From the human T2T-CHM13v2.0 reference genome, Homo sapiens, in the NCBI RefSeq assembly GCF_009914755.1, contig NC_060928.1: DNA of 64,000 bases. One strand, given 5' to 3'. The position numbers and the translations under genes were made by a program. The notes under the pieces are model-generated. The model had not been told where the DNA came from, did not search any database, and worked only from the letters and a program-made list of their open reading frames with translations. Position 1 is the first letter of the stretch. The number at the start of each line of letters is the position of its first letter. Positions 7,070-64,000 of the stretch are shown here, piece after piece.

Positions 7070-7228
7070 TAAATGCTTGAGGGGATGGTTTTTACATGCT
7101 GTGATTTTACATGCTGTGATTACCATGTATTGCATACCTATATCAAAACATCTCATATATTCAATAAGTATATACAACTACTATGTGCCCACAAAAATTA
7201 AAATAAAAAGTAGAAAATAAAGTAAAAT
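7070..7228 (+). mobile_element. Short L1MA-type 3' end insertion with TSD
   Basis: taaatgcttgaggggatgg..ctactatgtgcccacaaaaattaaa plus A tail; flanked by aaaaacccatctgaac (7054-7069) and aaaaacccacctgtac (7229-7244). Confidence 0.85.
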
Positions 7229-7244
7229 AAAAACCCACCTGTAC

Positions 7245-7360
7245 ACCAAAACTTATTTCATCTATCTAACCTGTATTTTTGCACTAATTAGCCAACCTCT
7301 TTTCATCCTCCCTCCCTATTACTCCAAAAATATGTGTAATTATTATGTATCAACAAAAAT
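7245..7360. mobile_element. Tiny L1MA 3' UTR element with an inverted 5' part
   Basis: About 7245-7317 is antisense L1MA 3' UTR (ttagccaacctcttttcatcctccc); about 7318-7360 is the sense terminus (aaatatgtgtaattattatgtatcaa). Confidence 0.6.
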
Positions 7361-8399
7361 GACCCAACCCTAAAAAAATAAGAAACTAACTTTGATCCAG
7401 TAGCCAAGGTTTAACTTGCTTGCCTCCAAAACATTCAGGCCGTAATTAAATTGATTAAAGCATCTTTAGATTTTGTAACAGGATCACTTGTAAACCTGAG
7501 GTTACTACAGTTAGTAAAATTTTATGTTCCTAAAAAAACACTCAATATATTTCTACTAACTAACAAATGATCGATAACTGTGACTTTCTTTTTCTCATCT
7601 TACTATCCCCTGATGTAGCATTCCTAATACGCCAAATCTGTAACACCAATGAAGGAAAATTACACGAATATACCTGTAATTAAGGAATTGTCCATGCTCA
7701 CAACAGATTTTTTTGTACATCCCAAAACCCAAATGTGACTTAATGTTTTTGAATAGGTCACTTTTATATTAAATATGTAAAGGGAAATATCAGGGTTCAT
7801 TAAAATATGTAGTATAGTCATTCCTGTAGAAGCCACTTCCTTACCAGAAGCTCAATTGACAGAACTGTTATGTTTTCTAGGACATATCAAATTGCCTAAA
7901 TAAAATAGATCTATATGCTAGTGACAGATATAATTTTGGGATAATTCACTTATCTGAAATGATATAGAAACAAACATATTTCCGCAGACTCCTCAGGTAC
8001 CATTTAAAAATAAAAAATAAACACATGAATTACTTGATACCTTGATGCTTCCATAAATAATTGTCATAAAGGTAGATTCTCACAGTAAACAAGATATTAT
8101 AGGATCTAGGGTCTTATACTGTGAAGAGTGTAGACATACTGTAGAAATACTACATAAACGTATACAAATACTTTAGAAAATCCTTTAGCAGTTTTTATCT
8201 TTGACTAGCTGTTCCAAATAAAGTCCATATAGAAGACTTTCTTACAGATCAAAAACAAGTAGCAAATCTATAGACACACAAAGTCTAGACTGATAAACTC
8301 GGAAAAAAATGCCATGGGGGAATGATAGAGTTGTGAGAACTCAACATAGAAGGATATGACCTGGTAAAACCAGAATTACCACTTACAGCATCAGATAAA

Positions 8400-60075: not shown

Positions 60076-61887
60076 ATTCTTACCATGCCTGATTTTTTGA
60101 GAGTTTTAATCATGAGTGGTGTTGAATTTTGTCAAATGGTTTTTCTGCATCTATTGGGACCATGTTTTGTTTTGTTTTTCTTTTTTTTTTTTTTCCCTTC
60201 TTTCTGTTAATATAGCGAAGCATATGTACTGATTTGCATGTGTTGAATCAACCTTGCATTCCTGGGATATATCCCAAAACATCATGATGATTAAACTTTT
60301 TAATATACTGTTGAATATGATTTTCTAGTATTATGTTGATATTTGCATCTATATTCATCAGTGATATTGGTCAGTAGTTTTCTTATAGTGTTCTTGTCTG
60401 ATTTTGGTGTCAAGGTGATACTGGCCTCATAAGTTTGGAAGTATTTCCACTTCTTCAATTTTTGAAGGAACTTGAAATGGATTGATATTAGTTCTTTTAT
60501 AAGTTTTTTGTAGAATTCATCTGTGAAACCCTAAGCTTTTCTTTGATGTAAGATTTTAAATTACTAATTCAACTTGCTTACTCATTATTGGTCTGTTCAG
60601 ATTTCCAATTTATTCTTTGTTCACTCTAGGTAAGTTATATGTTTTTAGAAATTTATCTATTTCTTTTAAGTTGTCCATTTTTTCCACAGTGTCTGTTATA
60701 ATCGTTAGTATTTGTGTATTATCAGTTGTAACATCTCATTTTTCATATTTTATTTTATTTGAATTTTTTTTTCTCTTTTTTTCTTAGTCTCGCTAAGGGT
60801 TTGACAATTGTGCTTAGCTTTTCAAAAAAACAATTCTAATTTCTGTTGATCTTTTCTATTGTTTTTCTAGTCTTTATTTCCACATTTTCTGCTCTGTTAT
60901 TTGTTATTTTCCTCATTCTATTAATTTTGGGCTCATTTTTAAAGTTCCTTGAGGTGTAGTCTAAAGTTGTCCACTTATTTGAGGTTGTTCTTCTTTTTTG
61001 GTGTATTTATTGCTATGAACTATCCACTTAGAACTGTTTTTGATGAATTCTGTTTTGGCAGTTTGTATTTTCATTTGTCTTCAGACATTTTCTCCTTTAA
61101 TTTCTTCTTTGACCCAATAGTTGTTAAATATTAAGCATATCACTTAATTTTTACTTATTTGTTAGTTTCCCATAATTTATTCACTTATTAGTTTCTAGTT
61201 TCATATAGTCTTAGAAAAGATACGTGAAATATATGATTTCAATCTTCTTAAAATTGTTAAGACTTGTTTTGTGGTCTAAATATTCTTGAGAATGTTTTAT
61301 ATGTACTTGAGGAAAGTGTGTTTATATGTACTTGAGGAAAATCTGTTTTCTGTTGTTAGTACAATGTTTGGTACGCCTGTGTAGGTCCATTTGATCTAAA
61401 GTGTGTTTCAAGTTCAATATTTCCTTATTGGTTTTCTGTCTGGATGACCTGTTCTGTATTGAAAATGAGGTATTGAAATCCCCAATTATAATTGTGTTCC
61501 AGTCAGTCTATGTCTCCCTTCAGATCTTTTAATGTTTGCTTTATATATTTATAAATATATAAAGATGCTATGATGTTGGGGTGTGTGTGTGTGTATATAT
61601 ATGTGTGTGTGTATATATGTGTGTGTATATATACACACATATATATATTTACAATTATTATGTCCTCTTGATGGATTGACTTCTTTGTCACCATATAATG
61701 ACCTTTATTTTGCATTTTTGCCCTAAAGTTTATTTTATTTGAAAGAAGCAGAGCTACATTTGCTCTCTTTTTGTATCCATTTGCATAAAATATATTTTTT
61801 CCAACCCTTCACTTTCAGTCTATCACTATCCTCTAAGGTTAAGTGAGTCTTTTGTAGGCAGAATATACTTGGGTCTGTGTGTGTTTG

Positions 61888-62289
61888 TGTCATGGGAGTC
61901 TGTGTGAAGAGACCAGCAACAGGCTTTGTGTGAGCAAGAAGGCTGTTTATTTCACTTGGGTGAAAGTGGGCTGAGTCTGAAAAGAGAGTGAGCAAAGTGA
62001 GATGGGGTGGGGCAGTTTTATAGGATTTGAGTAGGTAGTGGAAAAGTACAGTTAAAGGTGGTTATCTCTTGCAGGCAGGGGTCACAAGGTGCAGGGTGGG
62101 AAGATCATGAGACTCATTGTCCAGGTGGGGAATGTCACAAGGTCGATTGATTAGTTAGAGTGGGGCAGGAACAAATCAGAATGGTGGAATGTCATCTTTT
62201 GTGGTTCTTCAGTTGCTCCAGGCCATCTGGATGTATACATGCAGGTCACAGGGGTTATGATGGCTTAGCTTGGGCTCAGAGGCCTGACA
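61888..62289 (-). mobile_element. HERV-H LTR7-family LTR (left, antisense)
   Basis: Reverse complement reads tgtcaggcctctgagcccaagctaagcc..ggtctcttcacacagactcccatgaca; TATA at 62016-62023, AATAAA at 61946-61951. Confidence 0.96.
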
Positions 62290-62509
62290 TTTCTGTCTTC
62301 TTATATTAATAAGAAAAACAAAACAAAATAGTGGTGAAGTGTTGGGGCGCCGAAAATTTTTGGGAGTGGTATAGAGAGATAATGGGTGATGTTTCTCAGG
62401 GCTGCTTTGAGCAGGATTAGGGGCGGCGTGGGAACATAGAGTGGGAGAGATTAAACTGAAGGAAAATTTTGTGGTAAGGGGTGATATTGTGGGGTTGTTA
62501 GAAGGAGCA
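62290..62509 (-). mobile_element. HERV-H 3' internal segment including the polypurine tract (antisense)
   Basis: Reverse complement ends ttattaatataagaagacagaaa directly before the LTR; mirrors 63043-63258. Confidence 0.93.
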
Positions 62510-63258
62510 GTTTTGCCTGACAAAGGTCTCTTCTTCCTCCGTGGCTCCTCCACCTACATGTGTCTGCGTATGAATTGGACAGGCACATGAACACTAGTTT
62601 TCCTTACTCCCAAAAATCTGTTTGCAAATAGGACCAAACAGCTTTCTGTTCCCCTCATGACACCAATACTTCATCACTATTTTGTCTTATTTTTCTTATT
62701 AATATAAGATGACAGGAATAGGCCTCAACTTACTCGCTGCTGAAAAAGGAGGACTGTATATATTTTTAAATGAAGAGTGTTGTTTTTACCTAAGTCAATC
62801 TTGCCTGGTATATGACAACATAAAAAACTCAACGATAGAGCCCAAAAACTTGCCAACCAGGCAAATAATTATGCTAAACCTCCCTGGGCACTTTCTAATT
62901 GGATTTCCCGGCTCCTCCCAATTCTTAGTCCTCTACTACCTGTTTTTCTCCTTCTCTTATTTGGACCTTGTGCCTTCCATTTAGTTTCTCAATTCATACA
63001 AAACCGCATCCAGGCCATCACCAATCATTCTATATGACAAATACTCCTTCTAACAGCCCCACCATATCACCCCTTACCACAAAACCTTCCTTCTGTTTAA
63101 TCTCTCCCACTGTAGGTTCCCACGCCGCCCCTAATCCCGCTCGAAGCAGCCCTGAGAAACATTGCCCATTATCTCTCTATACCACCTCCAAAAATTTTCA
63201 ACGCCCCAACACTCCACCACTATTTTTTGTTTTTCTTATTAATATAAAAAGACAGGAA
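62510..63258 (+). mobile_element. HERV-H env remnant, 3' internal region and PPT (sense)
   Basis: GLFFLRGSSTYMCLRMNWTGT*TLVFLTPK (SU) and GLNLLAAEKGGLYIFLNEECCFY (TM immunosuppressive domain, degenerate CX6CC). Confidence 0.93.
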
Positions 63259-63667
63259 TGTCAGGTCTCTGAGCCCAAGCTAAGCCATCATAACCCCTGT
63301 GACCTGCATGTATACATCCAGATGGCCTGGAGCAACTGAAGAACCACAAAAGATGGCATTCCACCATTGTGATTTGTTCCTGCCCCACTCTAACTAATCA
63401 TTTGACCTTGTGACATTCCCCACCTGGACAATGAGTCTCATGATCTTCCCACCCTGCACCTTGTGACCCCTGCCCCTGCCCAAAAGAGATAACCACCTTT
63501 AACTGTACTTTTCCACTACCTACCCAAATCCTATAAAACTGCCCCACCCCTATCTCCCTTTGCTGACTCCTTTTTGGGACTCAGTACGCCTGCACCCAGG
63601 TGATTAAAAAGCTTTATTGCGCACACAAAGCCTGTTTGGTGGTCTCTTCATAAGGATGCATGTGACA
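63259..63667 (+). mobile_element. HERV-H LTR7-family LTR (right, sense)
   Basis: tgtcaggtctctgagcccaagc..catgtgaca; TATA at 63531-63538, ATTAAA at 63603-63608. Confidence 0.96.
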
Positions 63668-64000
63668 GTTTGTATGAGTTTGTATATATGTTCATTTTGG
63701 CCATTCTATGTTTTTTGACAGAAGAATTTATTCCATTTACATTTAAAGTAATTACTGATAGGTAAGGAACTTACTGATGCTATTTTTAATTGTTTTCTGA
63801 CAGTTTTATAAATTTTTGGTTCCTTTCCTCCTCTCTTGTTTTCTTTCTTTGTGATTTGACGGCTCCTAGTGGTATGCTTTAAATATTTTCTTTTTATCTT
63901 TTGTGTATCTATTATAGGCTTTCATTGTGTGGTTGCCTTAAGACTTATATAAAATATTTTATATTACAGTAGACTATTTTAAGTTGATAATTTTAATTGC

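What the first reader, a model, noticed from the sequence alone, without database searches (positions are those of the whole stretch)
61883..63672. Inverted-LTR HERV-H: two proviral 3' ends fused back to back inside a single 5-bp TSD
Seen: the order is LTR(-) 61888-62289, PPT-containing 3' internal(-) 62290-62509, a strand switch near 62510, env/3' internal/PPT(+) 62510-63258, then LTR(+) 63259-63667. Both LTRs abut a PPT, so both are 3' LTRs. There is no PBS, gag or pol, and both outer ends are U5 TGACA termini. GTTTG lies on both sides (61883-61887 and 63668-63672), and the host L1 continues across the site without obvious loss. Known: normal proviruses have direct LTRs with one U3 end and one U5 end, and HERV-H typically makes 5-bp TSDs. 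Inference: integrase inserted an aberrant U5-U5 cDNA in one event, for example two partial cDNAs joined, a template switch, or an autointegration product. The result resembles a transposon with ~620-bp terminal inverted repeats. Caveat: the flank is GT-rich, so a chance TSD match is less unlikely than usual.
Basis: partly seen in the sequence, partly recalled or inferred. Interest (0 to 1): 0.88.

Follow-up and report, generated by a model that had tools for sequence, protein, structure and literature searches.

The report
Inverted-LTR HERV-H insertion, two U5 ends
An ancient human endogenous retrovirus fragment was inserted as a head-to-head fusion of two viral 3' ends, apparently by the viral integrase acting on two identical-type ends, which is a rare fossil of a reverse-transcription accident rather than a working element.

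Summary
A 1780-bp HERV-H (LTR7C) insertion (61888-63667) has two inverted arms of 622/625 bp (LTR plus PPT plus 3' internal). Between them lies an ordinary 3' env remnant. Both outer ends are the family's U5 end (TG...CA). It is flanked by GTTTG/GTTTG inside an L1 that stays collinear across the site.

Five-bp duplications are the rule in relatives. The central junction (reverse-complement 3' UTR joined to env, 2-nt overlap CA at 62508-62509) occurs once in the genome. hg38 holds the same structure, listed in a published table as two separate truncated LTR7C elements.

New here: the arms are each other's closest relative in U3 (97-98% identical, 4 changes shared with at most one relative each). 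Their R-U5 parts are only about 76% alike and belong to two different family haplotypes, and the switch lies at the predicted U3/R border.

Best reading (about 0.7): one integrase-mediated insertion of a head-to-head cDNA with two U5 ends. It was probably built from two strong-stop DNAs of a mixed particle. Snap-back of one cDNA followed by gene conversion is the main rival.

It is a dead-on-arrival one-off, interesting to retrovirologists. A primate empty site could not be checked.

The parts
61640..61882 (.). Left flank: old L1 fragment, host target
   Evidence: 75-79% identical to other L1 copies up to 61876-61886. Collinear with the right flank in 3 of 4 L1 copies aligned.
61883..61887 (.). 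Left copy of the 5-bp target-site duplication, GTTTG
   Evidence: Read directly. Chance estimate. The 5-bp rule in relatives is shown.
61888..62002 (-). R-U5 of the left LTR, 'beta' haplotype (AATAAA-type poly(A) signal). The outer end is the U5 terminus.
   Evidence: 84-90% identical to beta-type copies (L052 90.2%, L033 88.2%) but 75-77% to the right arm. It ends at the family terminus.
62003..62289 (-). U3 of the left LTR (LTR7C)
   Evidence: 96.8-97.9% identical to the right U3, against at most 95.0% to 24 relatives. Four sites carry a state shared by both arms and found in at most one relative each. Labelled LTR7C, strand C, in the hg38 table of PMC8912925.
62290..62509 (-). 3' internal region with the polypurine tract, inverted copy of 63043-63258
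   Evidence: 91.2-91.6% identical to the right copy. Forty other HERV-H loci match this stretch but stop at 62507-62517.
62508..62509 (.). Internal junction: 2-nt overlap CA shared by the reverse-complement UTR and env
   Evidence: Alignment with 8 collinear relatives. The junction 141-mer and 30-mer are unique in the genome.
62510..62662 (+). env SU C-terminal fragment
   Evidence: Collinear with 25 other HERV-H copies. Its reading frame holds a stop. No Pfam hit for the 26-aa piece tried.
62663..62719 (+). 57-bp copy of the PPT region sitting where the SU/TM junction of env is deleted. A subfamily marker, not special to this locus.
   Evidence: Repeats D2 and I4. Present in 25 other loci. 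Twelve loci have the undeleted form.
62720..63034 (+). env TM remnant (CX6CC region to the C-terminus), frameshifted
   Evidence: Pfam TLV_coat: 62703-62825 at E 4.5e-8 (profile 463-497 of 560) and 62816-63031 at E 8.5e-6 (profile 503-560), in two different frames.
63035..63258 (+). 3' untranslated internal region and polypurine tract. From 63043 onward it is the right arm.
63259..63552 (+). U3 of the right LTR (LTR7C), with TATAAAA at 63532-63538
   Evidence: Labelled LTR7C, strand +, in the hg38 table.
63553..63667 (+). R-U5 of the right LTR, 'alpha' haplotype (ATTAAA-type poly(A) signal). The outer end is the U5 terminus.
   Evidence: 85-89% identical to alpha-type copies (L055 and L036 89.2%) but 75-77% to the left arm.
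63668..63672 (.). Right copy of the 5-bp target-site duplication, GTTTG
63673..64000 (.). Right flank: continuation of the same L1

Best explanation
This is one integrase-mediated germline insertion of an aberrant HERV-H (LTR7C) reverse transcript whose two ends were both U5 ends. The transcript was a head-to-head fusion of two minus-strand DNAs.

One minus strand had been extended from its tRNA-primed R-U5 through U3, the PPT, the 3' UTR and TM into SU, about 1158 nt. The other had been extended through U3, the PPT and about 220 nt of 3' UTR. The growing 3' end of one strand left its RNA template and continued on the other minus-strand DNA, at a 2-nt overlap (CA). It copied that strand out to its U5 end.

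After second-strand completion both termini were normal U5 attachment sites. Integrase processed both and joined them to an L1 target, making the family's 5-bp duplication.

The two arms carry different R-U5 haplotypes on a shared U3. The two strong-stop DNAs therefore most likely came from two different co-packaged genomes, that is, a heterozygous particle.

What is shown: the anatomy, the exact termini, the TSD, the intact target, the unique junction and the R-U5 discordance. What is inferred: the order of strand transfers, RT switching rather than end-joining at the centre, and the heterozygous particle.

The product lacks a PBS, gag, pol and a 5' LTR in sense orientation, so it was dead on arrival. 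Its two LTR promoters point outward.
For: (1) Arms 61888-62509 and 63043-63667 are inverted copies: 617 aligned positions, 91.7% identical.

(2) Homology stops exactly at the LTR terminus used by ordinary relatives (...GACA then flank) on both sides. The flanks themselves are direct repeats, not inverted.

(3) GTTTG lies on both sides. Of 9 testable relatives, 4 have a perfect 5-bp duplication, 4 match 4 of 5, and 1 shows none. The chance of a match is about 0.003-0.005, and at most about 0.04.

(4) The L1 is collinear across the site, with nothing missing, in 3 of 4 copies aligned.

(5) The right 1158 bp are an ordinary 3' portion of an env-deleted HERV-H lineage. They are collinear over 1136-1155 of 1155 query bases in 6 of 9 relatives fetched and interrupted in 3.

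(6) The junction has a 2-nt overlap, no filler and no LTR terminus. It occurs once in the genome.

(7) In U3 the arms are 96.8% (multiple alignment) or 97.9% (pairwise) identical, against at most 95.0% to 24 relatives, and they share 4 rare states. In R-U5 they are 75-77% identical. Each R-U5 is 84-90% identical to a different set of family members. Differences shared with relatives number 15 of 116 columns in R-U5 against 13 of 514 elsewhere, Fisher p = 1.8e-5.

(8) The switch lies between 63508 and 63549-63571. That span holds TATAAAA (63532-63538) and the start site expected 25-30 nt after it. This is the module border that strong-stop transfer creates. The start-site rule is recalled, not tested.

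(9) The same structure is in hg38 (chr4:166708660-166709288 C and 166709491-166710437 +, total span 1778 bp). It is therefore not a T2T assembly artefact.

(10) Recombination between co-packaged HERVH genomes is the published explanation for the block mosaicism of LTR7 subfamilies (PMC8912925, passages).
Against: No primate orthologue could be examined, so the empty site and the timing are unverified.

The TSD sits in a GT-rich, locally repetitive stretch. GTTTG occurs twice in the first 15 bases of the right flank.

The heterozygous-particle step needs both minus strands to have copied a U3 of the same lineage. That requires two sibling genomes, a strong-stop transfer onto DNA, or later conversion between the arms. 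None of these is shown.

Divergence is uneven between U3 (K2P 0.021) and UTR (0.095), Fisher p = 0.017. So some gene conversion or CpG decay has acted, and gene conversion could also have produced the R-U5 discordance.

In the UTR the arms are not clearly each other's nearest relative. The left arm is 92.6% identical to L033 against 91.6% to the right arm.

I found no published in vivo precedent for U5-U5 integration. The library lacks most subscription-journal virology.
Confidence: 0.7

Rival explanations
1. The event is the same single U5-U5 integration, but the cDNA came from one template. The 3' end of a single minus-strand DNA folded back and copied itself (snap-back), which gave identical arms. 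Later one R-U5 was overwritten by ectopic gene conversion from another LTR7C copy.
For: One fold-back explains the shared U3 and UTR directly. Uneven arm divergence shows that some homogenising or patchy process has acted. Both R-U5 segments carry private changes at similar rates, 5 and 8 of 116 columns, so neither looks newly acquired.
Against: The conversion tract would have to start by coincidence within about 60 bp of the U3/R border and run to the LTR end. The best R-U5 match to any of the 24 relatives compared is 89-90%, so no donor is evident. That set is only the best hits.
Confidence: 0.17
2. Two partial linear cDNAs, each with an intact U5 end, were joined at their broken inner ends by host end-joining rather than by reverse transcriptase. 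The fusion was then integrated through its two U5 ends.
For: The 2-nt overlap without filler fits end-joining as well as a strand switch. The different R-U5 haplotypes fit two molecules.
Against: Sequence cannot tell this apart from an RT switch. It needs two incomplete cDNAs in one integration-competent complex. The shared U3 lineage still needs explaining.
Confidence: 0.1
3. The structure arose after integration. Either two independent opposite-strand HERV-H insertions were trimmed by a deletion, or a normal provirus had its 5' part replaced by an inverted duplication of its 3' end through replication template switching.
For: Opposite-strand HERV-H neighbours do exist. The adjacent C/+ LTR7C pair at hg38 chr2:157341040-157345446 turned out to be such a case, with the minus-strand LTR on the inner side. 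The LTR's own 5-nt terminal inverted repeat (TGTCA...TGACA) could give microhomology at the left edge.
Against: Breakpoints would have to fall exactly on the LTR terminus and exactly restore a 5-bp direct repeat, with no L1 loss. Two integrations within a few bases are very unlikely. An inverted duplication predicts identical arms, including R-U5, which is not seen. The arms are each other's nearest U3 relative.
Confidence: 0.03

Closest known systems
Ordinary HERV-H / LTR7C provirus or truncated element
   Same: The LTR, PPT, 3' internal and env sequences are the same. It has the same TG...CA termini and 5-bp duplication. A published hg38 table labels both halves LTR7C.
   Different: The LTRs are inverted rather than direct. 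Both are 3'-type with U5 outward. There is no PBS, gag or pol. The published table lists it as two separate truncated elements, not as one insertion.
Defective HIV-1 proviruses with internal inversions or asymmetric LTRs
   Same: These are products of aberrant strand transfer in reverse transcription that still integrate. In PMC9278108, 2 proviruses in its summary of sequenced proviruses (1.3% each) carried inversions, and 26 of 88 had asymmetric LTRs. That paper explains the asymmetry by switching between the two co-packaged genomes (passages).
   Different: As described there, those keep a U3 end and a U5 end with direct LTRs. The passages I read report no U5-U5 form.
In vitro concerted integration with two U5 ends (recalled; only a search listing was seen)
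   Same: Integrase joins two like ends to a target and makes the normal duplication.
   Different: That is a test-tube substrate. This would be a germline product fixed in the genome.
L1 5' inversion by twin priming (recalled, not tested)
   Same: It is an inverted internal arrangement made during reverse transcription, within a single TSD.
   Different: It uses target-primed reverse transcription, with no integrase and no LTRs.
Nested opposite-strand HERV-H pair at hg38 chr2:157341040-157345446
   Same: Two LTR7C 'truncated' entries lie on opposite strands, 25 bp apart.
   Different: There the minus-strand LTR (L063 7212-7620) lies on the inner side, with its U3 edge against plus-strand internal sequence. 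That makes it an insertion next to or into another element, not a U5-out fusion.

Membership tests
HERV-H (LTR7C) derived insertion | LTR homologous to the LTR7 group | tested here: met
   Both LTRs match over 40 genomic LTRs at 79-92%. Both halves are labelled LTR7C in PMC8912925 supplementary file 2.
HERV-H (LTR7C) derived insertion | Gamma-type env TM next to the 3' end | tested here: met
   Pfam TLV_coat at E 4.5e-8 and 8.5e-6, profile 463-560 of 560, in two frames.
HERV-H (LTR7C) derived insertion | Polypurine tract abutting the U3 start | tested here: met
   Present at both LTRs.
Canonical provirus | Direct LTRs, one U3 end and one U5 end, with a PBS after the 5' LTR | tested here: not met
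   The LTRs are inverted. No TGGTGC on either strand. Seven of 7 relatives' 5' LTRs have it.
Integrase-mediated concerted integration | Insert ends exactly at the conserved TG...CA termini | tested here: met
   Both ends coincide with the terminus of ordinary relatives.
Integrase-mediated concerted integration | Target-site duplication of the family's length (5 bp) | tested here: met
   GTTTG/GTTTG. Relatives: 4 perfect, 4 with 4 of 5, 1 none, out of 9. Chance is about 0.003-0.04.
Integrase-mediated concerted integration | No loss or rearrangement of target DNA | tested here: met
   The L1 is collinear in 3 of 4 copies aligned. The true empty site in another primate was not available.
Autointegration product | Internal junction made of an LTR terminus joined to an internal viral site | tested here: not met
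   The junction is reverse-complement UTR joined to env SU. Neither side is an LTR end.
Single-template snap-back (hairpin) cDNA | Arms identical at formation, so divergence should be even along the arms | tested here: not met
   R-U5 is 75-77% identical against U3 at 97-98%. The R-U5 differences follow two family haplotypes. It can be rescued only by a later conversion.
Replicating (transposon-like) element with terminal inverted repeats | Other copies with the same internal junction at other sites | tested here: not met
   One match in 3.1 Gb at up to 3 mismatches. Only the self match spans the junction, out of 41 matches (40 of 1223 candidates scored).

The most novel reading that the evidence does not exclude
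This locus is a germline fossil of a heterozygous HERV-H particle in which both strong-stop DNAs were extended and fused head to head. The fusion was then inserted by integrase through two U5 ends. It would be natural in vivo evidence that a gamma-like retroviral integrase needs no U3 end, and that both co-packaged genomes can be reverse-transcribed at once into a single integrant.
Probability: 0.45. Interest if true: 0.65.

Novelty: new variant of a known kind. Interest (0 to 1): 0.5.

Why it matters
It records in one locus three things that are usually inferred only statistically or in vitro:
- Integrase can complete concerted integration with two U5 ends in a germ-line cell.
- A growing minus strand can switch onto another minus-strand DNA instead of RNA.
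- HERV-H particles probably carried two different genomes. That is the mechanism proposed for the block-mosaic evolution of LTR7 promoters (PMC8912925).

There is a practical point too. Repeat annotation splits such insertions into two 'truncated' elements on opposite strands, so any further cases are hidden in existing tables.

The locus itself is inert as a virus. It is a 1.8-kb near-palindrome with two outward-facing LTR7C promoters in a gene desert, and no gene is annotated in the window.

Tried and rejected
(1) Replicated structure. The 141-base and 30-base junction searches found only the window.

(2) A second case from the published table. The adjacent C/+ LTR7C pair at hg38 chr2:157341040-157345446 was located in the held genome (L063). 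That took one 40-kb fetch that held only Alu matches and a coordinate correction from published anchors. It has the minus-strand LTR on the inner side, so its architecture is different.

(3) A genome-wide scan for back-to-back PPT-LTR junctions with a 24-base pattern. It gave 559 forward and 535 reverse matches, but only 100 were listed. The survey could not be completed.

(6) Literature. Six full-text searches found no report of an inverted-LTR, U5-U5 endogenous retrovirus insertion with a TSD. The nearest hit was one sentence that a guppy foamy-like ERV 'has inverted LTR' (PMC5210030, passage). The HIV strand-transfer paper PMC12657518 does not use the words inversion or inverted. PMC5041404 describes host-DNA inversions at aberrant integrations, not inverted LTRs.

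(7) Spliced env mRNA as template. The env side of the junction starts at a pyrimidine tract plus CAG, but the G and possibly the CA upstream of the would-be exon are retained, and the upstream sequence is reverse-complement UTR. Rejected.

(8) Pfam on the 26-aa SU piece gave nothing.
Full report
**Observation.**
The window holds a 1780-bp insert at 61888-63667. The repeat finder reports five inverted pairs that tile two arms. A gapped alignment joins them into 61888-62509 (minus sense) against 63043-63667 (plus sense): 617 aligned positions, 91.7% identical. GTTTG lies at 61883-61887 and at 63668-63672. The insert opens with TGTCA and closes with TGACA.

**What the pieces are.**
- The right 1158 bp (62510-63667) are an ordinary 3' portion of an env-deleted HERV-H lineage.
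  - In order they hold an SU C-terminal piece, a 57-bp copy of the PPT region (62663-62719) in place of the SU/TM junction, the TM remnant, the 3' untranslated region, the PPT and the LTR.
  - Six of 9 relatives fetched are collinear over 1136-1155 of 1155 bases. Three are interrupted.
  - Twenty-five other loci span the SU / PPT-like copy / TM arrangement, and 12 loci have the undeleted form (40 of 430 candidates scored).
- The TM remnant hits Pfam TLV_coat (E 4.5e-8 and 8.5e-6, profile 463-560 of 560) in two reading frames. It is therefore frameshifted as well as deleted.
- A published hg38 table lists chr4:166708660-166709288 (strand C) and chr4:166709491-166710437 (strand +), each as a 'truncated' LTR7C element with one LTR (PMC8912925, supplementary file 2).
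  - The total span of 1778 bp and the piece lengths fit this insert. The structure is therefore in hg38 as well as in T2T, and the LTRs are LTR7C.
  - That paper calls 7c the oldest subfamily, with most of its spread before the Old World monkey/hominoid split about 25 million years ago (passages).

**Is it one insertion?**
- Homology between the arms stops exactly at the LTR terminus used by ordinary relatives (...GACA, then flank).
- The flanks are direct repeats of each other, not inverted.
- Five-bp duplications are the family rule. Of 9 testable relatives (3 proviruses, 6 solo LTRs), 4 are perfect, 4 match 4 of 5, and 1 shows none.
- The chance of a 5-bp match from the local 5-mer content is 0.003-0.005. 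GTTTG reaches 0.043 of 5-mers in the nearest 50 bp on the right, so a cautious upper figure is about 4%.
- Four of 5 other L1 copies match both flanks. With the insert and one GTTTG removed, 3 of 4 aligned copies are collinear across the site. The fourth diverges to the right of it. Our copy is some 15-20 bases longer there, in a GT/T-rich stretch, not shorter.
- Neither arm is followed by the PBS-like (t)ttggtgc that follows 7 of 7 relatives' 5' LTRs.

**The central junction.**
Aligned with 8 collinear relatives, the reverse-complement UTR runs up to ...GAAGGAGCA and env starts at CAGTTTTGCC. The two share only CA (62508-62509), and there is no filler. Neither side is an LTR end, so integrase did not make this junction and an autointegration product is excluded. 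The 141-base junction query matched in full only itself. The 40 other matches stop at 62507-62517 (40 of 1223 candidates scored). The 30-base junction string occurs once in 3.1 Gb at up to 3 mismatches. The structure was never copied.

**New result: the arms are mosaics.**
- I compared both arms with 24 related LTRs and with 15 relatives that span UTR plus LTR.
- In U3 the arms are each other's nearest relative: 96.8% in the multiple alignment and 97.9% pairwise, against at most 95.0% to any relative. They share 4 states found in at most one relative each.
- In R-U5 they are 75-77% identical.
  - The right arm is 85-89% identical to one set of copies, with an ATTAAA-type poly(A) signal ('alpha').
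  - The left arm is 84-90% identical to another set, with an AATAAA-type signal ('beta').
- Differences in which each arm's state is shared with at least 2 relatives number 15 of 116 columns in R-U5, against 13 of 514 columns elsewhere (Fisher p = 1.8e-5).
- The change of relationship falls between 63508 (the last state shared only by the arms) and 63549-63571 (the first haplotype differences).
  - That interval contains TATAAAA (63532-63538) and the start site expected 25-30 nt after it, which is the U3/R border. The spacing rule is recalled; the start site was not measured.
- In the UTR most differences are private to one arm (10 columns right, 4 left). The arms are 91.2-91.6% identical but are not clearly each other's nearest relative. 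The left arm is 92.6% identical to L033.
- Divergence is uneven between U3 (K2P 0.021) and UTR (0.095), Fisher p = 0.017 on events.

**Mechanism.**
[quoted passage not shown] This is established retrovirology.

Two arms with the same U3 lineage but different R-U5 modules, swapped at the U3/R border, are what two different strong-stop DNAs would give. I therefore read the insert in three steps:
- Two minus strands were made in a particle that carried two different genomes.
- They were fused when the 3' end of one strand switched at a 2-nt overlap onto the other minus-strand DNA and copied it out to its U5 end.
- The fusion was completed to a duplex with two U5 attachment sites and integrated.

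How both minus strands came to copy the same U3 lineage is open. The possibilities are sibling genomes, a strong-stop transfer onto DNA, or later conversion between the arms.

Rivals:
- A single-template fold-back followed by ectopic conversion of one R-U5. This needs the tract border to coincide with U3/R.
- Host end-joining of two partial cDNAs. Sequence cannot separate this from an RT switch.
- Post-integration rearrangement. This needs breakpoints exactly on the LTR terminus and does not explain the R-U5 discordance.

**Age.**
UTR plus U3 give K2P 0.052 over 503 sites. With assumed (recalled) neutral rates of 1.0-2.2e-9 per site per year, this is about 12-26 million years. The estimate is rough because divergence is uneven.

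**Comparison with what is known.**
- Six full-text searches found no report of an inverted-LTR, U5-U5 ERV insertion with a TSD. The library lacks most subscription-journal virology, so this is weak evidence of absence.
- Known neighbours are HIV-1 proviruses with internal inversions and asymmetric LTRs, the asymmetry being explained by switching between the co-packaged genomes (PMC9278108, passages). Another is the recombination-driven block mosaicism of LTR7 (PMC8912925, passages).
- One line notes a guppy foamy-like ERV with 'inverted LTR' (PMC5210030).
- A second adjacent C/+ LTR7C pair in the published table (hg38 chr2:157341040-157345446) was fetched. It has a different, nested-type architecture.
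- A whole-genome survey could not be finished, because only 100 of 1094 pattern matches were listed.

**Verdict.**
The locus is a new variant of a known kind: an aberrant reverse transcript integrated through two U5 ends. It is a single dead-on-arrival copy. It is of moderate interest, mainly to retrovirologists and to those who annotate ERVs.

Noticed in passing
window 62663-62719: A 57-bp copy of the PPT region sits inside env where the SU/TM junction is missing. Twenty-five other HERV-H loci share it and 12 loci have the undeleted form. It looks like an old template-switch footprint that marks a sublineage and gives those elements a second PPT-like tract.
   Followed up: partly
window 62485-62510, and relatives L010-L018: The env side of the junction begins at a pyrimidine tract plus CAG. 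Upstream of it the 8 relatives fall into three different sequence groups. This point is therefore a recurrent deletion or join boundary in HERV-H.
   Followed up: partly
outside the window, about window 69353-75282 (hg38 chr4:166716125-166722054): A full-length LTR7up1 HERVH provirus (+) lies about 5.7 kb downstream of this insert, according to the published table. It belongs to the young, stem-cell-expressed subfamily.
   Followed up: no
L063 4994-9588 (G000 C2:157793994-157798588): An opposite-strand LTR7C pair lies 25 bp apart. The minus-strand LTR (7212-7620) is on the inner side, next to plus-strand internal sequence, env and the 3' LTR. It looks like one HERV-H inserted into or beside another.
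   Followed up: partly
hg38 chr4:88342031-88343211 (+) and 88344163-88349211 (C): This is another adjacent opposite-strand pair of 'truncated' LTR7C entries in the published table, with a 952-bp gap. It could be the mirror (U3-out) or a tail-to-tail arrangement.
   Followed up: no
G000 C1:112827539 (+) and C1:112833074 (-): Two PPT-LTR junctions face each other 5.5 kb apart.
   Followed up: no
G000 C5:6988208-6988280 and 6988373-6988445: The 3' internal segment occurs twice, in tandem and 165 bp apart, in one HERV-H copy.
   Followed up: no
window 61574-61660: A (GT)n/(TA)n microsatellite lies inside the L1, about 230 bp left of the insertion.
   Followed up: no
window 63043-63258 against 62290-62509: In the UTR the right arm carries more private changes than the left (10 against 4 columns). 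In R-U5 the left arm carries more (8 against 5). Unexplained.
   Followed up: partly
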